Shown: positions 4,150 to 58,756 of the stretch, one piece after another
Layout of the letters: each line of letters begins with the position of its first letter
Numbering within the stretch: position 1 is the first letter of the stretch
Source: Chiloscyllium plagiosum
Lineage: Eukaryota
Direction of reading: 5' to 3'
Length of the DNA: 64,000 nt
NCBI RefSeq assembly: GCF_004010195.1
Contig: NC_057719.1
Location: 46,542,137 to 46,606,136 of the forward strand
Notes under the pieces: generated by a model
What the model was told of the DNA's origin: nothing
What the model saw: the letters and a program-made list of their open reading frames with translations, nothing else
Databases searched by the model: none
Program-made: the position numbers and the translations under genes

Positions 4150-5310
4150 TGTTTTGCAATGGTGTTAATATATGTCAATTCTTTGAGGAGGTGATGCATG
4201 CTGTGGCTAAAAAGGAACCAATGGGTGTACTGTACTTAGATTACAAGAAGGCATTTAATAAGGTGCCACATCAAAGGCTATTGTGGTAAATATAAGCTCA
4301 TGCTATAGAGGGTACTGGCATGTAAAAACGATTGGCTGGCTAACTGGAAGCAGAGAATAAAGATAAATGGGTCTTTTTCAGCTTTCTAAGATATACCAAA
4401 TATCCCAGGGATTAGTTCTGGAAATTCAACTGTTCACAATGTCTATGATTGATTTAAGGAAAGGACTTCAGGTATGGTTATCAAATTTGCTGCTGACGCA
4501 AAGACAGATGGGAAAGTAAGAAGATGATGTGAGGGCTAAACCAAAGATATTGACAGGTAAATAGAATGGGAAATGATGTGGAAAATGTGAAAATGTGGTT
4601 TATTTTTGTAGGAAGATTATCTAAATGGTGATAGATGACAAAGTTTTGAGATTCAGAGAAATCTGGGTGTCCTTGTGCATGAAGCAGAGAGTGTTGGTAT
4701 GCAGGTGCAGCAGTAATTAGGAAAGCTAATAGAATGTTACTGTTTATTGCAAAAGGAATCGAAGGGAAAAATATATTTCAGTTGTACAAGGCATTGGTGA
4801 GATAACTTCCTTATTTAAGGAAGGATGTAAATGTATTTAAAGCAGTTCAGAAAACCTTTACTGGACTAATATCAGAAATGCACATTGTTTCTTATGAGAA
4901 AAGGTGGTTGGACTAGGTTCGTATCTGCTAGAGTTTAGAAATAAGAGGTAATTCAACTGAAACATGCAAGATCCCGAGTGACCTTAATGAAATGTATGTG
5001 GAACGGAGGTTCCTCTTGTGGGAGATTTGAGAACTAGGGCTGATTGTTTCAAAATAAGGTGCTGTATGTTTAAGACAGATGAGGCAATTTTTTTTCTTAC
5101 AGTGTTGTGATTCTTTGAAATTGTTATGATTCTTCAAAAGGCATAGGAAACAGTCTTTTAATATTTTTAAGGCAAAGATAGATAAATTCTTAACAAAGTG
5201 TTGGGAAAGGTTACTGCAGGAATGTGGAGTAATCAGATTAGCAATGACGTTGCAGAATGGTATAGGAAACTCAAGGAGCCAAATGGCCGACTCCTGTTCC
5301 TAATTTGCAT
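4150..5310 (+). mobile_element. Old CR1 RT-to-3' end fragment
   Basis: FFEEV...VLYLDYKKAFNKVPH and KFAADAK motifs, decayed; 3' end ggagccaaatggccgactcctgttcct. Confidence 0.8.
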
Positions 5311-8455: not shown

Positions 8456-10414
8456 TGATTCGTATTTCATCCTATTGTAGTTTTTAATACATAGCTATTA
8501 CAGATAGACTTTAGTGTCATATATATATATAATTCCAAGCAAAAGAAAAACTGGAGGTTAAATAGTTCCATGCAGTCATCCACTAATAATTTGTAAAGTA
8601 ACAAATTTAATAGATGTTATCTCGTTTTTACACTCGTTCCTCTATGTTCCCTTTAAGTGCCTATTCATTTTAATAAAGGCATCCAAGCCTGTGTTTTTGA
8701 ACGGAAGCATTAACTTGAAATGCCAAAGGCAGTTAGTTTGAAAAAAGGCAATATTGTTTAGCTTAAATAGCATAGAATTTTTTTATGGCCCAAATACTTC
8801 CCTTATTATATACAGATGCCAGATGAACGTCATTGTCATTGACGGGGTTTTGCAGCTTTGCTGCAGTAATGAGCTCCAGAATGGCCCATTATGTGGGTCA
8901 AACACAAGCCTGAAGCAGGATAGTTTTCCAGGTCTGGTTAAAGGTTAATGCAGCATGTTTCTATTACATTATTTTTCATTCTTCCAACCCTTCTAGTGCT
9001 AATTTCCATTAAAGACATACTATCTATATTTGATAATTAGAATTCTGTTTAATGATAGATTTATTAATATGAAGTTGAAGTAATCAAACAACAAAGGGTC
9101 TTTGTTGTATATTTCAGGCTCCTGAATTTTCAGGTATCCATATTTTTTAAAGTGATGATCAATGTTGGAAATAGATTGAACACTTTCTTTCCATTATCTG
9201 GAAGTAGACATGACATTGCAATAGTTCAGCCAAATATGAATAGAAGCTGCCCGAGGATTGATGTCCAGTGAAACTTGTTGCTAAAGGGATTCCTCTTTGG
9301 CCAAGGTTACTGCAACGTAAATAAGAAACAGTCCAAATGGTCATCAATCAGACAAGAGTGCTCAAGGGAGCAATTAATATTCCATGTAATACAGTATTAC
9401 AAATGCAAGGGTTTTGAGAGAAAGGTACTGTGCTTTTGCAAAGTGAATGATGTCTACAGCAACTAAGCAATTCAGAAAGCACAAACAAAATGTTCACAAA
9501 TTCTAAAAGCTTTTGACTCTGTATTTGCGTTAACTCACAGCACAACCATGTTGTAATGTATTCATATGGGAATGACCCATCTCCCCACATTCCACATCAA
9601 ATTATTACACTGCTATTTAACTGGTGGTTAAGCACCACTAAAACATAGCAAGGCACTTAAGAGGCCATTTTCTTTTGACCATGACATTACTTAACAATTC
9701 AAATCACTTGCAATTTTGATATTTTGTCAGGACCATAACTGGTACTTTCATATCAGCTCTACACAACTGTAGTTCTGGATGGGGAACACAGATTTCATAA
9801 TGGGAATCCTTTTATTCCTATTGTTGTATCTATCTAATGTTTAAAAGATCAATATGTTTTGGAATGTCTCTTTAGTTCAAGGTAAAAGTGTTAATGAGAG
9901 TCATGTAACCTGCTATCAGCTCTGCCTGACAACTATCTTGTATGGCTCAGTTAGCAGGAAGTGGGGGGGACCCAGGTTGAGACTTACTGAGAGCAAAATG
10001 TTCACAGGAGCAGTTGGGCTGATTCTGGACATTTTTGGACAGAGAGAGAGATCATTCAGGGATAGACACTGCAACTGAAGGGGAGAAAGCTTTTGGTCCC
10101 TTTGAGCTACAAGCAGAATGCAGGAAGGAGGAAGGTCATTGCGTGGAAAGAAATAACTCAGATTTGTTCTGGCAAAGTCAGGAAAAGAAAGCACTAATGT
10201 AAGCCTTACTACTAATAATTGTTATGAAACTGGAGGATGTACCTTTGATGGCCAGTAAATTAACCAGCATTATGTAGGTGCTCACATGTATTTGAATACT
10301 TTATCCAGTAGTATAAAGGTCCTTTTTGTTGATAGGTTTGGATTTGATCTTTAATAACTTGGCTATTTCACACAAAGGATAGCTCTAGAATTCTCCCCAT
10401 CCAAAACCTGAGAT

Positions 10415-10594
10415 TGTTCACCACCAGGTTATAGTCTAACAGGTCCACCTGGAAGCACCAGCCCCCAAAGCGCCGCTCCTATCCAAGGCCCCTTTCGAAA
10501 GCCAGTGCTTCCAAACAATCCCTCTGGACTGCAACCTGGTGCTGTGCGATTTTTAACTTTGTCCATCCTCGTCCAACGCTGGCTCCTCCACATC
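10415..10594. mobile_element. Palindromic PLE-derived element, family A, hypermutated
   Basis: Homologous to 29566-29752 and 33821-33998; TSD aaacctgagat at 10404-10414 and 10595-10605. Confidence 0.85.
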
Positions 10595-12154
10595 AAACCT
10601 GAGATCCAAAGCCTTAAACTAACAAAAGAATCAGTCAAGGTATTAAAGGTGCATAAGATCAGTTAAAGGTAATCCATCATTTAATTGAATGGTACAGCAT
10701 GCTCTTGCAGTCAAATGATTTTGTATGTTTCAGTTTGCTAGCCAGGACATCTGACTCCTAGTTTTTTGATCGACTAATTGTGCTGTGCCGTTAAAATTGA
10801 GTGAAGCACAGTTTATAGCCTGCGGCTCAATGAATCTTTAAACCTGTCTGTTTAATGGCGCCCATTTTAGCCCTGTCATACGTACATGGCACACCTCAGA
10901 CAGCATTTTGGCCATGTTTGTGTCTGAAACACAGGGAGACAGCTTTTGTTGGTGGAAGGGAGAGGCAGAGCAGCAGATGAGGCCACTATCCAGAGGGGAT
11001 AGCAATAAAAGTACTCTTATGTGTTTAACAGTTCTGAAAATCCGTTATGGTTTGCTTTAATTTGATTTACTATTGTACATGTACCTAGCTATAGTGAAAA
11101 GTTTCATATTGTGAGCAGTACAGGCAGATCATACCATACAAAGTGCATTAGGGTAAAAGAACAGAGCAAATAATACAACGTTACCGCAACATTATTATCG
11201 TATTAAATGGGTCATGTTGACACTGTGGTTTAATTTTAAATTGAGTTAAAATCAGGACCTGTTAAATTTTGAAAAGGTCCTGAACAGATTCCAGACTTCT
11301 AATTCAGAGATTATTTTGAGCATGTCAATGAAAAGAGTAGATAGTTGAACATTTGGTCTGGCAGCATCAAAAATTATACTGTATTGAGCTTTATAGGTTC
11401 TGTTAGTTTAGCAGTCCAAATTTAACCCAATTATGAATTGGTGGCTGAGTTCCAAAACCACACGAAATTACGTAGCTCACCCAGGGTAAATGACACAGCT
11501 TTTGAGGGCACTGTGCACTTTGATTGACAGGTCTATGAGCACATAATAGGATTAAAAGTTTCAAAGAGATTTTTGAATGGGAATTTATTGTTAAAGACTA
11601 ATGAGCAGTTGAGAAGAGAGCATAGTTTCCACAGATTTTCAATGGTTGCATTTCATTGATAATCCTGAGTTTCTAACAGGCAAATTTTGAATGGTGCTTG
11701 AATGGTGGATTTTCTTTTAATGATTTATGAACATTTCAAAGACTTCTCTGTGTTACTGTATGAACCATGAGATCAATGCATTATGGATGCAGAATGAGTG
11801 AGTATGGAGGTTATATGTTGGGGAGGGGTGCATAAAGGATGTACAAGGGGCATGGAGGGGGAGTGAAGAGCTGAGGGTGCATTGGGGAAATGAGAGGGTG
11901 AGGAGTACATGCTGAAAGGTCCACAAGTCATGTAGAGAACAGGGGCTGATCCGCCAGTGAATGGAGGAGGTTTGCACACCTTCATTCCCTGTTCAGCATT
12001 TCTTCAGGAGGGGGCGCTTATAACAACAGCCTGCTCCATATTTAGAAGATGAAAATTCTGTGTGAATTTTGCTTTCAGCAGTCAGGAACATGGGATCAAG
12101 AAATGGCTAAACTTGGGCTTTCAAACTCAGAGGGGTGGAAATCCAAAACCAGAA

Positions 12155-19921: not shown

Positions 19922-20300
19922 AAATAAAGGCAAAATACTGTGGATGCCAGAAATCTGAAACAAACACAGAGAATGCTAGGGAAGCTCAGCAGGTCAGGGG
20001 CAGCATCTATGAGAGAGAAACAGTGTTAATGCATTGAGGCTGGTATAACTCTTCTTCAGAATGATTTCAAACTGTTCCTGCCACAACTGAATGTAATTCT
20101 TCCTATCTCAACTTTATTTATCCCCTCTTGTTCAGTCTTTCGTCACTTACATTCTTCTGATGCCTTACGTCAGTTCCATAATTTCCAGTTTTCTTGCTAG
20201 GAGTTTTGTAAAGTTCATACCAGACTTGAAATTTTCACTGTTTCTCTTTCTGTGGATGTTGCCGAACCTGTTGACTTTCTCCAGCGTCCTCCATGTTTGC
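19922..20300. mobile_element. Old PLE-derived inverted element, family C
   Basis: Left arm gctcagcaggtca..gcagcatct..ctcttcttcagaa; right arm ctgtttctct..gatgttgccgaacctgttgactttctccagc; decayed hammerhead core. Confidence 0.7.
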
Positions 20301-21044
20301 TTAAGGCACATGGAGATTATGTGTTTTGTAAAGGTTTTCATCTTCCAAAGTATGACGGAACACTGATTATTGGCCACAAACAGTGAGAACAATAGATGAC
20401 TTGCTATATTTGCAGAAAACAAAATCAAAATCTGTAAAGAGAAAGGACATTTCAGGGAAAGGAAATAACATTTATGTGTGTGTGTTTCAGAAGAAAATGG
20501 TGTAATGTCTTCATTTGTTGTTTTTCCCTTTGCAGGATAACTAAGTTGTTGTGTAATTCTTCCAGTTTCTGCCCCTAATGCACATTGGTATTTGTTCTGC
20601 CTTTCCTTTTGCCTGGCTATCTCAGTGCTATCTAGTGGTGCTCAGCCCAATTATTTTTGACAGCAAGATCAGCTAACACTGCAACAGATAATCAGTGATC
20701 TGTAGCTCCCAATTACCCTATCCATCAGCCTGTGTATTCAGCCTCACTGGCATGGTAGTTCATTTAAACTGGCAAGCTCTTTATTTCTTTTAAAATCTGG
20801 AGTTGAGCTCAGATAAGCACTGTGTAGCTTGCCAATGAGATCATTAGAAGTGTATACACATTGGGATAGAATTTAATTTTGTGCAACAGTGTAAAGTAAC
20901 TGATAGCTAATCATCAATCTGCTTTCCATCATGCCTGATTAAAAATGGGAGAGATTTGCTATTACACAAGTGTACAAAATCAGAATCTACTTCACTGAAT
21001 TTTGAACTGATCTGTGTTACTGAGGAGTTGGCACGGGAAAACAT

Positions 21045-29420: not shown

Positions 29421-29565
29421 GTATTTATTACAATCAAATCACTTAATGCTTATGAAAATAATTCTATAGAACAATTAATTTTTAGATACTGAAAATTTAA
29501 CTTGTCAAGAACAGAAAACATTTTCTCGATGGTTTGTTACTTTTTTGAATAAGTAATACAAAGCA

Positions 29566-29752
29566 AAAATCACACAACACCAGGTTATAGTCCAACAAGT
29601 CTAATTGGAAGCACCAGCTTTGTCACAACCACCTGATGAAGGAGCGTCGCTCCGAAAGCTAGTGCTTCCAATTAAACCTGTTGGACTATAACCGAGTGTT
29701 GTGTGATTTTTAACTTTGTACACCCCAGTCCAACACCGGCATCTCCAAATCA
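29566..29752. mobile_element. Palindromic PLE-derived element, family A
   Basis: Inverted arms aaaatcacacaacaccaggttatagtccaac / gttggactataacc..gttgtgtgattttt; TSD taatacaaagca at 29554-29565 and 29753-29764. Confidence 0.92.
29630..29664 (+). ncRNA. Minimal type I hammerhead ribozyme motif (family A, intact core)
   Basis: cac-CTGATGA-a-ggagc-gtc-gctcc-GAA-AGCT-A-gtg: stem I cac/gtg, 5-bp stem II, palindromic stem III. Confidence 0.8.
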
Positions 29753-32298: not shown

Positions 32299-34450
32299 GA
32301 ACATAGAACATAGAACAGTACAGCGGTTTGGCCCTCCGTGTCTCTGCCAACCACAATACCATTCTAAACTGTTCCCATCTGCCCGCACATGAACCATATC
32401 CCTCTATTCTCTGCTCACTTATGTATCTGCTTAAATGCCCCTTAAGTTTTGAGAATGTATCTGCCTCTACCACCTCCGCTGCCAATGCATTCCATTCAGC
32501 TACCACTGTCTATGTAAAACAAAACTTTCTATGCAGATCTCCTTTCAATTTACCCACCTCTCATCTTAAACCTTTGTCCCTCGTATTTGGTATTTCCACC
32601 CTGGGAAAAAAACTCTGACTATTCTCCCTATTCAAGCCTCTCATAATTTTTATCTATTTCTATCAGTTCGCCCCTCAGTCTCCAACACTCTAATGAAAAC
32701 AATCCAAATTTGTCCAGCCTCTCCTTATGGCTATTACACTCATTCCAGGCAACATCCTGGTAAACCTCTTTTGCACCCTCTCCAAAGCCTATATATGCTT
32801 TCTGTGGTGTGGGGATCTGAACTGTGGGGATCTGAACTGCACACAATACTCTAAATGTGGCCCCACTAAAGTTTTATACAGCTGCAACATGACTTACCAA
32901 CTTTTATGCTCAATGCTCTGATCGATGAAGATAAGCACGCTGTACACCTATTGGAATCACTTTGAGGGAGCTAGGGACTTGCACCCGAAGACCCCTCTGT
33001 ATATCAATGCTCTTAAGAGTCTTCCCATTTACTGTATACTTTCCTCCTGCATTTGACCATCACCTCACACTTGGCTGGATTAAACTCCATCTACCATTTC
33101 TCAACCAATGTTTCCAACTGAACCATATCCTGCTGCATCCTTTGGTAATCTTCCTAACTAGGCTTACCTACATTAATAATTTTCAAAACACCCAATATTC
33201 TTCCTTCTTAATGTCAACGTGTTCTAGAATATCAACAAACCCCTCCTTAATCTTACAATCATCTCCATCCTTCTCATAAGTGAATACTGATGCAAAGTAC
33301 TCATTTAGGACTTCACCTACTTCCTCTGGTTCCTCATGTAAATTCCCTCCTTTGTCCTTGAGTGGTCCTACCCTTTCCTGAGCCACCCTCTTGCTCCTAA
33401 TAGTCAGAAGAAATGCCTTGGGATTCTCCTTAATCTGACTTGTCAAGGACATTTTGTGGCTCCTTTAAGTTCTTCCCTGCTTCCTTTATTCTCCTCAAGG
33501 GTCTTATTTGATTTCAGTTTCCTAAATCTTACATATGCTTTCCTTTTTCTTTTTGACTGAACTTCTGTTATCCCGCATCACCCAGGTTTCCTGGATATTG
33601 CCATCTTTATCTTTCATCCTCACAGGAACATCTTGGTCCTGAACTCTGTTCAACTGGACTTCGAAAGACTCCCACATGTCAGATGTGGACTTACTCTCAA
33701 ACCGCCACCCCAATCTAATTTTGCCAGTCTCTGTCTAATACTATTGCAATTAGCCTTCCCTCAGTTTAGCACTTCTACCCGAGGACCAGTCTTATCCTTA
33801 TCCATAACTCTATTTTTAAAGTTAAAAATCACACAACACCAGGTTATAGTCCAATAGGTTTAATTGGAAGCACACTAGCTTTCGGAGCGACACTCCTTCA
33901 TCAGTGTGCTTCCAATTAAACCTGTTGGACTATAACCTGGTGTTGTGTGATTTTTAACTTTGTACACCCCAGTCCAACACCGGCATCTTCAAATCATGTC
34001 TATTTTTAAACTTATGGAATTATCATCACTGTTCCCAATGTGCTCCACCATTAAAAACTTTGATCACCTGGCCAAGCTCATTCCCCAATACACAATCTAA
34101 TATGATCCTTCTCTCATTGGATTATCTACATATTGTTAGGTGCATCCTTCTGCATCGCCTGTCTGCCACTCCTGCCAGTCACCCACCTATCTAGCTGATC
34201 ACATCCCTGAAACTCCTACTTAGAAAACTTTCTTGCTTCCTGTATGGTGTTCACTGAGTCTAGCTTCCTGCTCCAACTGATCCATGTGGTCTGAGAGGAG
34301 CTGTGGGCGGAAACACTTCCTGCAGATGTAGCTGTCGGGGCATTTGATATCTCTCCGATCTCCCACATGTCACAGGAGGAGCATACCACTCCACTAACTG
34401 CCATTTCCATCCCTCTAGTGATTATGGGATTAACTTTACCATACATTAAT
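32299..34450 (-). mobile_element. Long, internally deleted CR1 (ORF1 start to 3' tail)
   Basis: Tail gaacatagaacatagaac; ORF2 peptides IKENPKAF..GPLKDKGG..EVLNEYFASVFT; ORF1-like CSSCDMWEI at ~34390. Confidence 0.85.
33821..33998. mobile_element. Palindromic PLE-derived element, family A, nested in CR1
   Basis: ~55 bp near-perfect arms; the loop is a minus-strand hammerhead core; TSD tctatttttaaa at 33809-33820 and 33999-34010. Confidence 0.92.
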
Positions 34451-34713: not shown

Positions 34714-34922
34714 GGTAAAAACAATGACTGCAGATGCTGGAAACCAGATTCTGGATTAGTGGTGCTGGAAGAGCGCACCAGTTCAGGCAGCATCCGAGGA
34801 GCAGTAAAATCAATGTTTCGGACAAAAGCCCTCTGATGAAGGGCTTTTGCCCGAAACGTTGATTTTACTGCTCCTCGGATGCTGCCTGAACTGCTGTGCT
34901 CTTCCAGCCCCACTAATCCAGA
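34714..34922. mobile_element. Palindromic PLE-derived element, family B
   Basis: ~80 bp inverted arms; TSD attgtattgcctaa at 34700-34713 and 34923-34936. Confidence 0.92.
34833..34860 (+). ncRNA. Minimal hammerhead core (family B)
   Basis: CTGATGA-a-gggc-tttt-gccc-GAA-ACGT-T; the 5' strand of stem I is disrupted by the inversion junction. Confidence 0.7.
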
Positions 34923-44120: not shown

Positions 44121-45630
44121 TAGAACATAGAACATAGAACATTACAGTGTAGTACAGGCCCTTCGCCCCTCAATGTTGTGCCAACCTGTGAAACCAATCT
44201 GAAGCCCATCTAACCTACACTGTTCCATTATCATCCATATGTTATCCATTGTCCATTTAAATGCCCTTAAATTTGGTGGGTCTACTGCTGTTGCAGGCAG
44301 GGTATTCCATACCCTTATTACTCTCTGAGTAAAGTAACTACCTCTGATATCTGATCTATATCTATCACCCAGGAGAAAGTGAGGACTGCAGATGCTGGAG
44401 ATCAGAGCTGAAATGTGTTGCTGAAAAAGCGCAGCAGGTCAGGCAGCATCCAAGGAACAGGAGAATCGACGTTTCGGGCATAGGCTTATGCCCGAAACGT
44501 CGATTCTCCTGCTCCTTAGATGCTGCCTGACCTGCTGCGCTTTTCCAGCAACACATTTTCAGCTCTATATCTATCACCCCTCAATTTAAAGCTATGTGCC
44601 TCGTGGTAGCCATCACCAGCTGAGGAAAAAGGCTCCCACTGCTCACTCTATCTAATCCTCTCATCATCTTGTATGTCTCAATTAAGTCTCCTCTCAAACC
44701 TTCTTCTCTCAAATAAAAATGCCTCAAACCCCAACGTCTTTCCTCATAAGACCTGCCTCCATACTAGGCAACATCCTGGTAAATCTCTTCTGCACCATTT
44801 CCAATGTTTCCACATCCTTCCTATAATGTGACAATCTGAACTGTAGGCAATACTCCAAATGTGGCTACACCAGAGTTTTGTGCAACTACAACATGACCTC
44901 ATGGCTTCAAAACTTAATCCCTCTACTAATAAAAGCTAACACACTGCACAACTTCTTAACAACCCTATCAACCTGGGTGACAACTTTCAGGGATCCATGT
45001 ACATGGACACCAAGATCTCTCTGCTCATCTATACTACCAAGAATCTTACAATTAGCCCAGTACTCTGTATTCCTGTTATTCCTTCCAAAGTGAATCACCT
45101 CACACTTTTCCTCATTAAACACTATTTGCCACATTTCAGCCCAGATCTGCAGCTTATTTTTGTCCCTCTGTAACCTGCAACAGCTTTCCGCACTGTCCAT
45201 AACTCCACCAACCTTAGTGTCATCTGCAAATTTATTAACCTATCTTTCTATGTCCTCATCCAGGTCATTTACAAAAATGACAAACAGCAACAGCCCCAAA
45301 ACAGATCCTTGGAGTAACTGAATCCAAGACGAACACTTCTTATCAACCACCACCCTCTGTCTTCTTACAACAAGCCAATTTCTGATCAAAACAACTAAAT
45401 CACCCTCAATCACATGCCTCCATATTTTCTGCAATAGCATACAGTGGGGAACCTTATCAAATCCCTTTCTGAAGTCCATATACAATACATCAACTGCTTT
45501 ACCCTCATCTACATGCTTGGTCACCTTCTCAAAGAACTCAATAAAGTTTGTGAGGCATAATCTACTCTTCACAAAACCACGTTGAATATCCCAAATCAAA
45601 TATTCCTTTCTAGATGATTATAAATCCTGT
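44121..45630 (-). mobile_element. CR1 RT-to-3' fragment, nested
   Basis: Tail tagaacatagaacatagaac; ORF 45240..45599 LTNFIEFFEKVTK..YMDFRKGFDKVPH. Confidence 0.92.
44371..44563. mobile_element. Palindromic PLE-derived element, family B (CUGANGA lost at the junction)
   Basis: TSD tctatatctatcaccc at 44355-44370 and 44564-44579. Confidence 0.92.
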
Positions 45631-50004: not shown

Positions 50005-52881
50005 AATACACCCAATGACTTGGCCTCTACAGCCTTCAATGACACTGAGTTCCACAGATTCACCACCTTCTGAATGAAGAAATTCCTCCTCATCTCTGTT
50101 CTAAAGGGCTGTCACTTCACTGTGAGGCTATGGCCTTAGGTCCATGTCTCTCCTACGAGTGGAAACATTTTCTCCATGTCTACTCTATATAGTCTTCTCA
50201 ATATCCTGTTAGTTTCAATTAGATTCCCCCCTTATCCTTCCAACTCCATTGTGTACAGACCCAGAGTCCTCAACTGCTCCCCATAAGCCAAGCCCTTCAT
50301 CCCCAGGATAATTCTAGCAAACTTCCTCTGCAGTCCCTCCAAGGCCAATCCATCCTTCGTCAGTTATGGGGCCCAATACTATGGTCTGACTAGAGCTTTA
50401 CAGAGCCTCCGCAGTAGATCTCTGCTCTGGTATTCTAGATGTCTTGAAATGAATGCCTTCCTAACTGCCAAATGAACCTGCAAGTTAAAAGAATCCTGAA
50501 CCAGAACTCCCAAGCCTCTTCAGATTTCTGAAGTCTTTCCTTGTTTAGAAAATGGCCTTTTCTTCCTATCTCACTTCTGGGGGGTAAAATACAACTGATG
50601 AAACCATTCTTCTCAGGAGTTCGGCCATGAGTATCATTGGATTGTGCTAAGTCTAGAAATAATGGGTGAAAACTGGGAGGGTGGGAATATTGATTTTTCT
50701 CTCTCAGAATTCTTACATGATAATTTAAAATATATATATATATATTTCAACATTAGAGATATGAAACTACAAACAAAACAAATAGCTTTCAGCATAGATT
50801 ATATGGCTAATGCAACTCATTGTGGATACACTTTCATATTTGCTTGGCCCTCTCTTTTCATTATGCCGTTGCAACACTGCAACAAGTCAATGATTTACAA
50901 TTAAACATTTTCTCATTTCCTATTGTGTTTTTATAGAGACTGTTTTGCGTTGTCAGCTGGGACAGACATTATAATGTGCTTCCCACTTCAAAAATGGGTG
51001 GCTTGAATCCAGAATGATCATGATTTCAAGAGCTAACCATGAAAGTGTGTTAGCCCCCCTTTCCAATGTTACTGTTGAAATCAAGCATCTATCAGGCTGA
51101 CTAAAGAAACTGATTAGCTGCAACCTGCTGTACTAGTAGATATTTCAACTAACACAGAATGCTGTGGTTGATGCCAACTGTGCATAGATGTTCATGATAT
51201 ATACTGAAAAATGCATGGACTAGCAATTGTAAAGTTAGCTAAAGCATTAACTTTTGGTCTTTCTGAATAATTTGAAGGGGGCCATGGCAGCAACACAGTG
51301 CCATGGTTATAAAGACATGAACGAAGTAGAAAATATGTCAAAAGATTATAATCATTTGACTTGGAGTTCGGGTTTTGAAAATGTTTGGTTTAAGAATATT
51401 GTAAGACTGATTGAGAAGGGACACTCGAGTATTTTACAATTAGGAGATCTTGTGAAAGAATGAATTAGTGTATGGTAAGAAGGTTGTTTAAAATATTACA
51501 TTCAGAGAGCACTTTAACGATATTAGTTAATGAATATGGTGTCATGAAATAATTGCAGATTTTTGTGTAGGCCATGGTTGAACCAGTAAAAATTCAAATG
51601 CAACAACTCTTGCATTTCTAGATAATTACTTACAAAATAGTAGCAACTTTTATGATACCACATCTCTTTCCTGGCTGGCTAGACACAGAAAGACAATTTG
51701 GAAGAATGAAGGAAAAATCTGAACAATGGAAAAAGTTTGCAAAAAAGTCACAAAAAATAGTTATATATCTTAGAAATTACAAATTCTCTTTATATAATGA
51801 TTTGAACACAGTAACTTTCAGGGCATGCATTCCTTAGTGTTTTATTTTAGGATTGAGCCTTCTGATTGACTTATTTACTTTAGAGCAACTGGAATTGAAT
51901 TGATAACTTCAATAAACTTTATAACAATTCCTTAATGAGCATCCTTTCAAGCTTACCCTATTAAAAAGCGTTTCATTCTTAAGAGTCTGACTAATCCCAA
52001 GGGATCATGCAAATCCTCATTCTAAGTGGCCTGGGAAATACAAATTCTTTTCAAAAATCATATCAGCCATTGTAAATTATTCATTTTGAATATTTTCAGA
52101 CATCTGTCATATGCAGGTGCGAGAGGGATTTGTTCAGAGGATGCCTGGAATACTTCTATAAGTAAAGAGTGATTATTAACTGCTGGTGTGAGCCCTTTAT
52201 GCCACTACCAGCTATTAGTTGTTGGCTCAAGTCCAGGAACATCCACTTTGCAGTGGATTCTGCCACCAAGGGAAAGGTCATGAAGGGCTACTCTTTATTC
52301 CTGTTAGTACGTTCCAACATAATTAGCAGAAGTTGTTCTCCAGATGGTTTCCTTCCTGTCAGCAAGTACCTATGGTTTAATGATCTGTCTTGGATTCCTC
52401 ATTTCATTGGGTGAGGTTTAGAGCAAAATTATACACTTTGATCCACCCTAATTCTTTCCTAAGAATTCATGAGATTGTGAGAATTAATAGCTGATGTAGG
52501 AAGAGAAAGCGACTGCACAGCTCTCATTGCAAACAAGTTCTTTTGACATACAATAGTTCTTTATAAAAATAGTGTGCACACAGTATCCATTCATTAATCC
52601 TGGCTACAAATTCTTATCAAACCAATTCGAGAGTTTTAACACAATGAAGTTTTGGAAATGCTGTCTGTGCTTTCCAAGGGATCTCAAACTCACTCTTCTC
52701 CTTGTGCTCACTACTCCTCTTGGGTAAACTGGTAACCCTTCAAAGTCAAAATGTATTCAGCAAGCATCAAACGCAATCACATTTTGCACTTTTAAAATCT
52801 GCATTGAATATAAAGTTTTTATAGTCTGCTAATTATTTTGAAAAAACTATAAATGCCTTGATATAATTTGAATTTTTTTTT

Positions 52882-53663: not shown

Positions 53664-55525
53664 TTCTACACAGCCACTGAATTTATATCCACAATCATCT
53701 TTTGGCTGAATATCCTTTTTATTTGAAAAGAAAAAAATTCAATATGCTTGTAAGAACTTTGGGATTTCTCTGACGTCATGAGATTTTACTTTAAATACAT
53801 TCAAATGAGATGGAAATTTGTGGAATATGGCCAGCCAGTAACTCAACACCAATAGGATACGATTGAAAGAGAGAACAGAGAAGTTAGAGGAAAACTTTTT
53901 CACATAAAAGTTAATAAGGTATGGATACATCATTTCTAGCTATTTAAACCAAGATTATAACATAACTTGAAAAGAAAATGAAACTTGAAAGAAAAATGAA
54001 TAAACATTTTGAAATGAAAGAAAGGGTAGTGAAATAAGATTAATTTGGGTGGCACTAGTTGAAAACTTAGCATCTGCAACAGCTCAATTCTCCAAATGCC
54101 TTCCTTTTGTGCTGTAAAATCTATTTCCAAGGAGCTTCTATATCCTTCTTTAACATAGATATCTTCAGTTTCAAAATGCATCCTTTTGACTTTGAGTATA
54201 ATAATTTCATGATGGGCACTTAATTCCTGAAAAGTTGAGCTCAGAAGCCCAAAGCCTTAAGTGTGCTTGAGATTCTCAGTATATGCTTGTGCAGGTGATG
54301 AGCACAAAAAGAGGCAGGACCTGTGCACAAGCTGTGCACTTTGCTCATTAGACCCTTTACATCTATGTTCATTAACCAGCTGTCCTGTAACATAGCTGGA
54401 ATGTTTAAGCAGCACTGCAGCTGCACATTGCCAGTTTGGAATAGGTCCTGAAGGGAAGGCCAGCATTAAAATGAAAAGCTTAAAACTGAAACCTTTGCTG
54501 TTTGTCCCCATTGCCTCCTAGTACAAATGTGCACAATGCACACATGCCTATTATTATCCCTCAACACAGTCACCGGTGTCACATCATACACCTGAAATCT
54601 TCTAGTCTACAATCAAAAGCCAGGAGTCCTTTACTCAGTTGTTGCTGCTCAGTAACTATTCTCCTGCCATACTGTGATACATCCAGAATGTGCCAGTGGA
54701 TGACCTTGTCTGATTTGTTGCTTTGCTGTTTAATACCGAGCTCCAATACAAACAAAATTATTACCTGTAAATTTCTATGTTTTTTCAAGAATGCTGGACC
54801 ACAAACCAAAAACAGTGATCAGGATGTACTCTCATTTAATTTTGTTAGGTGTCGCACACTCTTTTGATTATTATACTCCCAAGAAGTGTGCTTTTGAAAC
54901 TTACTTTCCAGTTTCTTCCATCTTCCATCTGAAGGGTCCACATCTGAAGAAAACATGCCATTTAGTCCATTGAGCATGCATTTGTTGTGTCATTAGGCCT
55001 TTGGCTGTATTGTACCAATTTTATTGCTGTCCTTTCTTCTTATGTGTAATGTTCTTACATCCATGGGCCCATCTCCCTTTTTATAGCCAGGAATGATTGT
55101 GCATCCATGAACTTGTAGTATTTAACCATTGTATACTTTGTGTGAAACTGTTTGAATTTTTGATTCCATTTAAAATATTATAGTAATTGGTCTGCAATGC
55201 ACCCGTATTACAGTACTGACAGCCTGTAGTCCAGGAACCTATTTAAAGACATCCAACCTGATCGTAGATTGAACAATTTTTCAGGTATCCAGGGTGCCAC
55301 ATAGCAGTTATGGGTCCTTGCATATATTAATCCTAGGGTTAATGCCAGATTTCAGACCCCTCTGATTTTGGCAGCCCCAAGACTGCCCAAGCACTCTCCT
55401 CTATGTTTTATTAACACGAATCTATCCAAGCAAACAATTGCCATCAAAAAGGTTAGCGAAAACTTCTAAAAATAAATTTAGATGAGGAGCCAGGAAGAGC
55501 AGAATTTTTTCTTTCAACTCTGCAG

Positions 55526-55591
55526 CACTCCTGAATACAACCACCAGTTCAATCACGACCACTCCCTGCTCCTTTCCTGAGGCTGATCTAA
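55526..55591 (+). other. Candidate 66-nt symmetric (phase 1-1) exon
   Basis: ttttttctttcaactctgcAG acceptor, GTAAGA donor, single open frame LLNTTTSSITTTPCSFPEADL; no homology recognised. Confidence 0.2.
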
Positions 55592-56278
55592 GTAAGATGG
55601 CAAGGCTCAAAGTGATATCTGTAGAAAAACATATTGTCTATCAGACCATCGCTAGTTGATCACTCTGAATGTTAGATCTGGTCCAATTTCAATCAGCCTT
55701 AGACCTTGGGCATGTAAAGTTGCTTCCCTGCCTTCACTCCCAGAACCTGGTTCTAAGCAGAAAGGAGATACTCAGCAAGTTTGGCATCATGTGTGGAAAT
55801 TGAAAGAGAGCATGAAACCTATATGATTCTTCTTCAGAACTGAAGAGAGGTGGAGCATGATGGGTTTTATGTTGTTGAAAAGTAAAAGAGGAACAAATGG
55901 AACAAAAGGGAAGGTTGGGTAAATGTTAGAGGGTGAGGGAGACTTGAGATCAAAGATATCATAGAACTAAAGGCAAAGGGAGTGGTAATGGTTGTAGGAA
56001 AATGAAAAGCATTAGTCCAGAGTAGGTGTTAATGCCAGAATAAAGCTCAGCTCTGTAACTGAAATCCAAAATGTGAAAACATGGTGCAGACATGTTGGTG
56101 AAAAATAATGTCAAAATGGAGGACAATGTTCAGTGCCTGAAGCTGTTGAATGCAATGTTAAGTTAAGAAGGCTATAAAATGTCACCACCAACATGGTGCT
56201 ATTATCGAACACATCTTCTATTGCGCTCACTGTCTGCATTCTGAAGAGACAGTTTAGTTCTGGGTTACTCCTCTATCA

Positions 56279-56512
56279 GGAGAAAGTGAGGTCTGCAGAT
56301 GCTGGAGATCAGAGATGGAAATGTGTTGCTGGAAAAGCGCAGCAGGTCAGGCAGCATCTAGGGAACAGGAGAATCGACATTTCGGGCATTAGCCCTGAAG
56401 AAGGGCTAATGCCCTGATTCCTGAAGAAGGGCTAATGCCCGAAACGTCGATTCTCCTGTTCCCTAGATGCTGCCTGACCTGCTGCGCTTCTCCAGCAACA
56501 CATTTCCATCTC
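56279..56512. mobile_element. Palindromic PLE-derived element, family B, nested in an older PLE
   Basis: TSD ttactcctctatca at 56265-56278 and 56513-56526. Confidence 0.93.
56416..56453 (+). ncRNA. Minimal type I hammerhead ribozyme motif (family B, intact core)
   Basis: gattc-CTGAAGA-a-gggc-taat-gccc-GAA-ACGT-C-gattc; GUC cleavage triplet; stem I pairs at 4 of 5 positions. Confidence 0.8.
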
Positions 56513-58756
56513 TTACTCCTCTATCATCCCAGCACTTCATCCTTATCCATAGCAATGTTTGTTACAATTACTCAAGGTGTAACACATGTCCTTTTACATG
56601 TCCAAGGCCCCAAACACTCCATCTGGGTGAAGCAGAAAATTGCTTGTACATCTTTCAATCTAATTTACCATATTCATTGCTCACCATCTCTATGCTGGGG
56701 CGTCCAAACACAGACTGAGTGACTACTTTGTCAAACACCTCTGACCTTCCAGTCACTTGATGTTTCAGTGCGCAATTTTGCTTTCTGTATGAAGTCTGAT
56801 GCAGTGTTCCAGCACAGATCAAGGAATAAGGTCTCATTTTCCAATCTGGCATGTTAGATACCTTAATTGGTTCATTTTTAAGTCCCTTCACCTCCAAACA
56901 AATATAACTCCATTATATCCAATCTCTCATCAGAATTCTTCGCGAGAAAACTAATTTTTCCTCACTACCAGATCTATATTACATACTTAATTCATCTGTA
57001 TCCCAAATGCACAGAGATAATTTTCGTGATTATTAAACAGTTGATTCTTGTATAATTCTTGTGCAGAAATGTTTGACATTCTCAGTCACCCATGTGACCA
57101 CTTTAAAAAGTGCTAATGGACTATCTATTTCCTTTTGCACTATGGATGTTTGCACCTCGAATAGCAAAATGAAAATACTATACATAGATTTCTTACTGCC
57201 ATAGCAGTTAGGTATTAGATATGTTCAGACCTCGCTGCTGTGCAATAGTTAGTTCATTTGCACATTTTCTCATTTGTACGTAGCCTGCAATCTGGCTCTG
57301 CCCTGGTTTTATGACAGGAACTTGACACATAGCTGCAAATCTCACCCAATGAAACCTGATCTTCTTTGTAAATGTTTTTTATTGACTGTTGAGTTTACTA
57401 GCTTACCTTATTCTAATAAATTTCTACATACAGGATCTCCTATTTATTTTAATTTCCATTTCCCTTCCCATAGTCATTTGCCACCATTTCAATTATTCAT
57501 GTTTACATTTCAATGTTTAATTGCAATCAAAAAATGTGAATTAGCAATTTGCTATTCAGATGGAAATATGTTGCCTTATGTGAGTTTAATGCTCTCAGTA
57601 AAATAGTCTTTAAAAAGCTGCCAGCGAATCATGCTTGCTTCAGTCTCCGATGCCTTATGACCTGGTAGCCTCCTTTTCTCAATTCTGTGCCATTGCTGAT
57701 TAAACGGGGCACTAGGAGGTGCCACAGAGCTATGTGGGTTCTTTTTTTCCCCTCACTCTGGAGAAGTATCTCATACCTGTTTATATGAGCTGTCTCCCTA
57801 TGTTGCTGAACAGAGATGGGCATGTTCTTGCACCTCACTGCTCCTTATATACACCACAGCATAATCACAAGCTGCTTTTAAAACAGCTTCATCTCTTGTT
57901 TCTCACGTTAACCGGATGCACCCAACCCTTTAAAGGCTAAATGTTTACTTTGCAATACCTGAAGACAGAGCTCTATATCTTTTTCAGAACTCTTTTCGAC
58001 TTTCGCCACACAATGAAATGTTTGCCTTTCCCCAACAGAGGAATAAATGCCTTTGTAAGTGATAAATGTTTAGAAAGCAAAATTGGGATTTCAATATTTC
58101 AAAACATAATTATCACTAATAGTGTATTTAGACTAAATGTCATCAATTGTGGTTGTCCCAGCAGTTTTCACATAATTATTTTACCAATGCTGACATTACA
58201 TGGGGGGGTGAGGGGAGAGGTAGGGGTGATAACAATATTGCAATCAGGCCCAGAATCTTAACCACAATAGTATCACACTCAATATTCAGAGACAGGCACA
58301 CCCATAAACTGAGATCTGCACATGTCCTGACTTAACAGATTCAGAAATAACATAGAATATTAATAGTAGTCCAAGCAACTTGAGCCTATTATACTCTCTT
58401 GATTTAGTGTGGTTTAGATAGCTGGCTACACAGACCACATTGTGTTCTGTCTGTGAATTGTAACAGAATAGGATTCAGTGGCTCGACAATTATAGAGTCA
58501 TAGAGATGTACAGCATGGAAACAGACCCTTGGGTCCAACCCGTCCATACCGACCAGATATCCCAACCCAATCTAGTCCCACCTGCCAGCACCCGGCCCAT
58601 ATCCCTCCAAACCCTTCCTATTCATTAAATGTTGTAATTGCACCAGCCTCCAACACTCTCTCTAGCAACTCATTCCCTACACATACCACCCACTGCATGA
58701 AAACGTTGACCCTTAGATCCCTTTTAAATCTTTTGCCTCTTACCCTAAACCTATGC

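What the first reader, a model, noticed from the sequence alone, without database searches (positions are those of the whole stretch)
10415..10594. Strand-specific T>C hypermutation in a fold-back element: a possible fossil of ADAR editing
Seen: against sibling copies (29566, 33821) I count about 14 T>C changes, ~7 per arm and all on the + strand (aggttt>aggtcc, ctagcttt>ccagcccc, gctag>gccag, gttgtgtg>gctgtgcg). There are only ~2 A>G changes, and the T-run in the unpaired tail (tttttaacttt) is untouched. Two sites are CTA>CCA, i.e. UAG on the minus strand. Known: ADAR hyper-edits long dsRNA A>I and favours UAG. Inference: a minus-strand transcript of an already palindromic unit was edited and then reverse-transcribed back into DNA. 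That would imply these hairpins move as RNA units. The clean 11-bp TSD argues against simple old age.
Basis: partly seen in the sequence, partly recalled or inferred. Interest (0 to 1): 0.7.

Follow-up and report, generated by a model that had tools for sequence, protein, structure and literature searches.

The report
ADAR editing scar in Penelope hairpin
An old hairpin-shaped retrotransposon insertion has half of the adenosines of one strand changed to guanosine in both paired arms but none in its unpaired tail, the mark of the RNA-editing enzyme ADAR written into inherited DNA, and on the strand opposite to the one these elements are thought to copy.

Summary
10415-10594 is a Penelope-like fold-back insertion (inverted arm, arm plus tail, 11-bp TSD). 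In the paired arms 16 of 32 T's are C, against 1 of 29 A>G and 0 of 12 tail T's. No change is mirrored in the opposite arm, so the edits came after the duplex formed. The C's are real DNA in two individuals, are shared by orthologues in two related species, and no C-state subfamily shows. So it is neither an artefact, a subfamily nor plain age, but the copy is old: a single burst before the species split. The 50% level, the confinement to the arms and the 5' neighbour order U/A > C > G fit ADAR; 3'-G enrichment is absent. The edited strand is antisense to the element's tail arm. 'These hairpins move as RNA units' is not shown. Re-mobilisation of an edited hairpin RNA (about 0.35), in-place RNA-templated conversion (about 0.22) and editing of an RNA:DNA transposition intermediate (about 0.27) all fit. 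One locus only; the genome could not be searched.

The parts
10404..10414 (+). Left target-site duplication, 11 bp
   Evidence: Exact match here and at 10595-10605 only
10415..10478 (-). Inverted arm: tail-less copy of the Penelope-like pLTR end (element sense on the minus strand), including hammerhead stem II and the GAAA core, which now reads GGGG on the minus strand; 9 T>C of 16 T's (10445, 10446, 10448, 10449, 10459, 10463-10465, 10474)
   Evidence: organism C has 2 more letters behind 10418
10479..10495 (.). Junction loop of unknown origin; organisms B and C carry 14 more letters behind 10494, mostly the lost start of the right arm
   Evidence: table 4; no convincing source in the window at up to 3 mismatches
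10496..10549 (+). Direct arm (element sense); 7 T>C of 16 T's (10503, 10516, 10522, 10524, 10532, 10542, 10547), one A>G (10531), two transversions
10550..10594 (+). Unpaired tail of the element; 12 T's kept, ordinary C>T and other decay; the last base of the canonical end may be shared with the TSD at 10595
   Evidence: paralogue contigs stop fitting at 10594/10595 in all four runs (tables 7, 8)
10595..10605 (+). Right target-site duplication, 11 bp
29565..29752 (+). Sibling fold-back copy with intact hammerhead motif at 29633-29657 (reference and control)
33818..33997 (+). Sibling fold-back copy with hammerhead motif on the minus strand at 33880-33904 (reference and control)

Best explanation
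A fold-back RNA of minus-strand polarity (antisense tail, antisense arm, loop, sense arm) formed a duplex of about 55-60 bp. ADAR deaminated about half of the adenosines on both sides of the duplex and left the single-stranded tail alone. A reverse transcriptase then copied this RNA into plus-strand DNA (C opposite I) in the germ line, once, before the three sampled species split. SHOWN: the pattern, its reality in DNA, its confinement to the arms, the lack of mirrored changes, its age and that it stopped. INFERRED: the enzyme, that the duplex was all RNA, and the route back to DNA. Most likely route (about 0.35 of the 0.57): a read-through transcript of an older fold-back copy was used by the Penelope RT/endonuclease at a new site. 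It was primed at the tail-less start inside the sense arm, and the tail end and TSD were fixed by the element's usual second priming on a normal sense RNA. Next route (about 0.22): conversion in place (first rival). ADAR-type deamination by any of the routes considered: about 0.84.
For: 16/32 arm T>C vs 1/29 A>G vs 0/12 tail. All 13 checkable partners of edited sites keep their A, so nothing was copied arm to arm. Of the 14 minus-strand G.T pairs 13 come from T>C and 1 from G>A (p=0.002), so it is A-specific and not mere tolerance of wobble pairs. 50% conversion matches the 40-50% end point of ADAR on duplexes over about 50 bp, and the 5' order U 5/8, A 7/10, C 3/10, G 1/4 roughly follows U>A>C>G (PMC11019741 passages). 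All-RNA duplexes react at least 20 times faster than hybrids and all-DNA duplexes not at all (PMC5389660 section 12). The minus strand still folds at -71.8 kcal/mol vs -51.6 for the plus strand. Background T>C in window repeats is 19/828. Since the species split the element differs from orthologues at the flank rate: 3/145 vs 7/309 and 6/176 vs 14/307. The Penelope protein extends both target strands and starts at two internal sites that match the ends with and without tail (PMC11167929); pLTRs can mobilise intervening sequence in trans (PMC3846280).
Against: One locus. No donor copy with the same loop and T states could be sought (no genome held). The 3'-G preference is absent and the 5' test is weak (two-sided p=0.07). 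In the anole element the protein needs RNA 3' of the start site, which a minus-strand hairpin transcript would lack. The exact tail end needs a second RNA or a template switch, which is assumed. No transcript was examined, and no host exon was found among 218 of 218 non-repeat ORFs scanned.
Confidence: 0.57

Rival explanations
1. Conversion in place (a sub-case of the best explanation, counted inside its 0.57). A normal fold-back insertion was transcribed on the minus strand, hyper-edited as a pre-mRNA hairpin, and the edited RNA or its cDNA later templated repair of its own locus, for example after a break at the palindrome or a nick by the element's endonuclease. The hairpins then do not move as units.
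For: Explains both canonical ends, the TSD and unedited flanks with no extra assumption. Weak hints of minus-strand transcription in the window: T>C 19/828 vs A>G 10/820 in repeats (p=0.14); the other seven fold-backs give 18 minus-strand vs 11 plus-strand wobbles. RNA-templated repair by Pol theta is reported (PMC8195485, abstract line and outline only). The anole protein may nick its own pLTR.
Against: Needs a germ-line conversion tract of at least 103 bp (10445-10547) from RNA, which is rarely documented (own knowledge). No orthologue with T states among the two other species laid. No host gene found.
Confidence: 0.22
2. ADAR edited an RNA:DNA hybrid during the insertion itself. Either (a) an antisense Penelope RNA self-primed into a covalent RNA-DNA hairpin, as proposed by Arkhipova et al. 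2013, with both halves on the minus strand and the tail unpaired; or (b) in two-strand priming on sense RNA, both the first cDNA and the RNA of the hybrid were deaminated and the RNA was then copied into the inverted arm.
For: One event gives the ends, TSD, unique loop and the same-strand pattern. PMC3846280 argues that head-to-head palindromes need self-priming on an antisense template, which is the polarity seen here. Full-length ADAR2 edits the RNA and DNA strands of a hybrid at equal rates (0.02/min each), matching 9/16 and 7/16.
Against: Hybrids react at least 20 times slower than dsRNA, so 50% editing needs a long-stalled intermediate. In (b) the A-rich tail would also be in the hybrid, yet 0 of 12 sites are changed. 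In vitro the anole element uses a sense template with start sites matching the genomic ends, against (a) as the general route.
Confidence: 0.27
3. A non-ADAR, one-strand process: the RT put G opposite U/T under nucleotide imbalance while making the minus strand, or an unknown adenine deaminase acted on a snapped-back cDNA hairpin.
For: A first-strand cDNA snap-back would have this polarity and anatomy (inference). The neighbour signal for ADAR is only modest.
Against: Misincorporation should hit the T-runs of the tail (0 of 12) and would be mirrored if the second arm was copied from the first (0 of 13). ADARs do not react with all-DNA duplexes, and I know of no animal dsDNA adenine deaminase (own knowledge).
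Confidence: 0.1
4. Ordinary decay with strand-asymmetric mutation, or selection keeping a minus-strand RNA hairpin by G.U-tolerant changes.
For: The copy is old. The window shows a non-significant 1.9-fold T>C over A>G. The minus-strand fold is largely kept.
Against: The chance of 16/32 is 4e-13 at a 5% per-site rate and 1e-8 at 10%, i.e. 8e-8 and 0.002 after allowing for 200,000 copies. Selection for G.U would accept G>A as well (13 vs 1). No excess change since the species split.
Confidence: 0.04
5. A C-state subfamily or an assembly error in a hairpin.
For: The window siblings belong to a somewhat different subfamily, and one of them shares the C at the 10459-equivalent site. One X1 paralogue contig has only 4 differences over 10504-10559, where this copy has 9 changes (record 2; letters not shown).
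Against: At 10471-10475 only the orthologous contig is laid in X1, X13 and X18 (depth 3.77, 8.4, 11) while family depth at 10532-10558 is 3e5-7e5. Loose-end consensuses of paralogues carry the T states. The two arms contradict each other at the changed sites. The bases are present in four runs of three species.
Confidence: 0.02

Closest known systems
Inverted-pLTR plus 'tail' insertions of endonuclease-bearing Penelope-like elements with minimal hammerheads (PMC8557442, PMC3846280, PMC4209133, PMC11167929)
   Same: Head-to-head arms, a tail on one arm only, TSD of about 10 bp, hammerhead motif in the arm.
   Different: Half of the arm adenosines of one strand are converted; no such copy appears in the passages read. 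Family membership rests on anatomy and motif, not on an RT sequence.
ADAR-type A-to-G hypermutation recorded in avian retroviral DNA (Rous-associated virus U3, avian leukosis virus inverted repeat; Felder 1994, Hajjar and Linial 1995, seen only as cited in PMC12925331)
   Same: About 50% of adenosines changed in an inverted repeat and passed into DNA by reverse transcription.
   Different: Those are infectious retroviruses and (by my recall) edits on the genomic RNA strand. Here it is a non-viral element fixed in the germ line across three species, and the edited strand is antisense to the tail arm.
APOBEC 'DNA editing' fossils in genomic LTR retroelements (PMC4866542, PMC2873906)
   Same: Strand-biased clusters of one substitution in single retroelement copies, fixed in vertebrate genomes.
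   Different: G>A from cytidine deamination of single-stranded cDNA. Here A>G confined to double-stranded arms. The word ADAR does not occur in the main text of PMC4866542.

Membership tests
Penelope-like element fold-back insertion | Inverted 5'-truncated copy next to the direct copy, head to head | tested here: met
   Arms 10415-10478 and 10496-10549
Penelope-like element fold-back insertion | 30-40 bp tail on one arm only | tested here: met
   Unpaired 45-nt end 10550-10594; the part absent from both siblings' left arms is 30-40 nt
Penelope-like element fold-back insertion | Target-site duplication | tested here: met
   11 bp
Penelope-like element fold-back insertion | Minimal hammerhead motif in the pLTR | tested here: met
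   Motif with stem II in both siblings; only stem II and the GAAA part survive in this copy; no Rfam match at gathering score
Penelope-like element fold-back insertion | Parent element encodes telomerase-like RT and GIY-YIG endonuclease | not testable with these tools
   No genome held; no family copy in viral, metagenome or prokaryote collections
ADAR hyper-editing footprint | Clustered A>G on one strand, far above other changes | tested here: met
   16/32 vs 1/29, p=4e-5
ADAR hyper-editing footprint | Confined to a duplex of about 50 bp or more, up to 40-50% of adenosines | tested here: met
   Arms 50%, tail 0/12; criterion from PMC11019741
ADAR hyper-editing footprint | 5' neighbour preference U>A>C>G | tested here: inconclusive
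   5/8, 7/10, 3/10, 1/4; U/A vs C/G one-sided p=0.037, two-sided 0.07; G alone p=0.6
ADAR hyper-editing footprint | 3' G preference | tested here: inconclusive
   5/9 vs 11/23, p=1; no enrichment seen, small sample near saturation
ADAR hyper-editing footprint | Substrate was RNA and the enzyme was an ADAR | not testable with these tools
   A fossil in DNA; no RNA run was laid
   The three window copies have three different junctions; genome not available

The most novel reading that the evidence does not exclude
The copy is a fossil of the Penelope transposition intermediate itself: an antisense-polarity fold-back (RNA-DNA or RNA) that ADAR edited before it was integrated. Hyper-edited copies would then read out, copy by copy, which strand Penelope-like elements use as template when they make head-to-head insertions, a question open since the antisense self-priming proposal, and would show ADAR marking germ-line DNA through a hybrid.
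Probability: 0.27. Interest if true: 0.85.

Novelty: new variant of a known kind. Interest (0 to 1): 0.64.

Why it matters
A-to-I editing is normally erased with the RNA. Here about 16 edits became inherited DNA in one step and persisted through speciation. Deaminase fossils in genomes are described for APOBECs, and ADAR marks for retroviruses in culture; seven searches (listings and abstract starts, open-licence papers only) showed no such case for Penelope-like elements. More useful than the single copy is the test it opens. This family is very abundant, so the polarity of edited copies can be counted: fixed to the element's tail means a transposition intermediate, fixed to the host transcript means re-mobilised or converted read-through RNA. 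Either answer bears on how Penelope inversions form and on how often RNA rewrites germ-line DNA.

Tried and rejected
No genome is held for this window, so no genome-wide screen or donor search was possible. Family motif scans found 0 matches in viral and prokaryote collections and 2 chance matches in bacterial coding DNA. Rfam: 0 matches; tRNA scan: 0. No RNA holder was listed for the stretch; no RNA run was laid, so transcription was not examined. Host gene: 218 of 218 non-repeat ORFs of 55 aa or more gave only four weak hits below the curated cut-offs, so the transcribed strand is unknown. Loop origin: best window matches to the 15-nt loop have 2-3 mismatches and do not extend. A first window-wide fold-back scan was too loose (shuffle scores up to 49 against a threshold of 40, and the query was displaced by a chance overlap) and was replaced (8 fold-backs; no other has more than 6 minus-strand wobbles). 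Strand asymmetry of repeat decay was not significant. Sequence look-ups in earlier findings returned nothing. PMC8118290 (passages) and the retrozyme preprint (part 1 of 5) held nothing on edited genomic copies in what I read. Rejected: artefact, C-state subfamily, plain age, G.U-preserving selection, copying of an already edited arm by snap-back (would give mirrored changes), ADAR on an all-DNA hairpin.

Full report
What it is. The stretch 10415-10594 is one of three copies of one repeat family in the window. Each is a head-to-head pair of arms with an unpaired end on the right. Both siblings carry a hammerhead core with stem II (3 matches in the window, 0 of 100 shuffles reached 3). This is the published anatomy of Penelope-like insertions: an inverted 5'-truncated copy, a 30-40 bp tail on one end, a short TSD, a minimal hammerhead in the pLTR (PMC8557442 passages; PMC3846280 passages; PMC4209133 passages). 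Earlier AI notes on this genome read such stubs the same way and call the host a shark; I did not test the host's identity. The plus strand is element sense for the tail arm, judged from the hammerhead's orientation. The parent RT could not be examined, as no genome is held.

The observation. The siblings belong to a slightly different subfamily. Using the copy's own opposite arm and the paralogue consensus, two more sites (10448, 10474) are T>C. That gives 16 of 32 arm T's, 1 of 29 A's, and 0 of 12 tail T's (p=4e-5 and 0.0016; 0.015 if 10585 is counted as a tail change). A test with no consensus agrees: of 19 mismatched pairs in 49 in-register columns, 14 are G.T on the minus strand and 2 on the plus strand (p=0.004). 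A looser boundary gives 14 against 5, p=0.06, because it runs out of register at the left end, where organism C shows an indel. Thirteen of the 14 come from T>C and one from G>A. All 13 checkable partners of edited sites keep their A. The changes therefore arose after the two arms existed, on one strand. Background in the window's repeats is T>C 19/828 and A>G 10/820. The chance of 16/32 is 4e-13 at 5% per site, 8e-8 after allowing for 200,000 copies (the copy figure is a rough ceiling from summed depths, which are not a copy number).

Real, old and unique. Four of the 24 runs listed were laid at 88% likeness. X1, perhaps the source sample, has a contig over 10100-10562 that differs only at 10400. 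X5, another sample and study, matches 10438-10561 with no difference. Organism B (X13, about 89% read) has the element with 3 other letters in 10416-10560, one listed (10515 A>G). Organism C (X18, about 61% read) has it with 6 other letters in 10402-10577; those listed are 10471, 10475 and probably 10449, where C would keep the family T. So at least 14 of 16 C's are shared with B and at least 12 with C; the unlisted differences are hidden under paralogue depth. Flank divergence is 7/309 and 14/307, and the element has diverged at the same rate (3/145, 6/176; p=1 and 0.64). The burst was thus over before the split. B and C also carry 14 letters behind 10494 that the window's lineage lost; by eye they hold the start of the right arm, confirm the partner of 10474, and add one more probable T>C. 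No C-state subfamily shows: at 10471-10475 only the orthologous contig is laid in X1, X13 and X18, while family depth at 10532-10558 is 3e5 to 8e5. In X5 short contigs of high depth also pass at 10471; their letters are not shown. Loose-end consensuses of paralogues carry the T states. One paralogue contig (X1 record 2) has 4 differences where this copy has 9 changes over 10504-10559; it may be chance among so many copies or another edited copy. A clean 11-bp TSD is therefore no sign of youth.

Does it look like ADAR? ADAR converts 40-50% of adenosines in duplexes over about 50 bp and prefers 5' U>A>C>G and 3' G (PMC11019741 passages). Here the duplex is about 55-60 bp and conversion is 50%. 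The 5' counts are U 5/8, A 7/10, C 3/10, G 1/4 (U/A vs C/G one-sided p=0.037, two-sided 0.07). The 3' G is not enriched (5/9 vs 11/23). Two of three UAG sites are edited. ADARs do not act on all-DNA duplexes and act on both strands of hybrids equally, at least 20 times slower than on dsRNA (PMC5389660 passages and section 12). I put ADAR-type deamination at about 0.84.

How did it get into DNA? The difficulty is polarity. The anole Penelope protein uses sense RNA, starts at two internal sites that match the ends with and without tail, and extends both target strands (PMC11167929, parts 1 and 2 of 4). An edited sense RNA would give A>G in the right arm and T>C in the left, or mirrored changes if the cDNA snapped back. 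Neither is seen. The edited molecule ran antisense tail, antisense arm, loop, sense arm. Three routes fit. (B) The insertion was normal and its own edited transcript later converted the locus (about 0.22). Hints of minus-strand transcription are weak, no host exon was found, and RNA-templated repair is cited from an abstract line only (PMC8195485). (C) The edited duplex was an RNA:DNA intermediate of the insertion itself (about 0.27). PMC3846280 proposes self-priming on an antisense template to explain head-to-head palindromes; that intermediate has this polarity and an unpaired tail, and equal hybrid rates fit 9/16 and 7/16. Against it stand the slow hybrid rate and the in vitro sense template. 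The loop has no clear source in the window, so it does not separate the routes. RT misincorporation or an unknown DNA deaminase get about 0.10, and age, selection, subfamily or artefact about 0.06 together.

What is known. About 50% A-to-G in an inverted repeat of avian retroviruses was reported in the 1990s (seen as cited in PMC12925331 passages). APOBEC fossils in genomic retroelements are catalogued (PMC4866542 passages, where the word ADAR does not occur; PMC2873906 passages). Seven searches for a germ-line ADAR fossil in Penelope-like or other non-viral retroelements showed none in listings and abstract starts. The library covers open-licence papers only, and no supplements were read. Two unchecked AI notes from other genomes report ADAR-type fossils in an L1 copy (sense strand) and a provirus, so the general phenomenon may not be rare; they are leads, not support. 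What is particular here is the internal control of two arms and a tail, the proof of age in three species, and the antisense polarity.

Verdict. Observation confirmed; ADAR reading well supported; 'hairpins move as RNA units' unproven. It is one copy, and the decisive genome-wide polarity count could not be run. New variant of a known kind; interest 0.64.

Noticed in passing
window:10402-10408: Organism C has 27 extra letters plus a 5-base repeat just left of the TSD, and organism B's flank contig also stops fitting at 10408 with 37 letters left: probably a microhomology deletion in the window's lineage.
   Followed up: no
window:10494: A 14-base deletion in the window's lineage removed the start of the right arm; B and C keep it.
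   Followed up: partly
window:10400 and 10669: All four runs read C at 10400, and X1 and X13 read A at 10669, against the window: possible assembly errors or private alleles.
   Followed up: no
window:10515: Organism B has A>G here, which restores pairing with the edited C at 10448; a single site, likely chance.
   Followed up: no
window:29557-29720, 44404-44566, 56311-56513: Young fold-backs lean the same way as the query: 5:0, 3:0 and 2:0 minus-strand to plus-strand wobble mismatches, a mix of T>C and G>A by eye; possibly transcription-linked asymmetry.
   Followed up: partly
window:34748-34924, 44404-44566, 56311-56513, 19958-20302: Fold-back stubs of other families; the first three have the extra end on the left, and 34833-34856 holds a hammerhead core.
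   Followed up: partly
window:1903-2888: A larger inverted repeat, arms 258 nt, 93% complementary, 470 nt apart, unrelated to these families; no strand skew (8:5).
   Followed up: partly
window:4122-4286 (+), 4931-5299 (-), 51195-51389 (-), 55425-55637 (-): Weak Pfam hits below cut-off: reverse transcriptase, retroviral envelope, P9 transmembrane, THAP9 transposase C-terminus.
   Followed up: no
window:63717-64000: A 31-base tandem array at the window's end.
   Followed up: no
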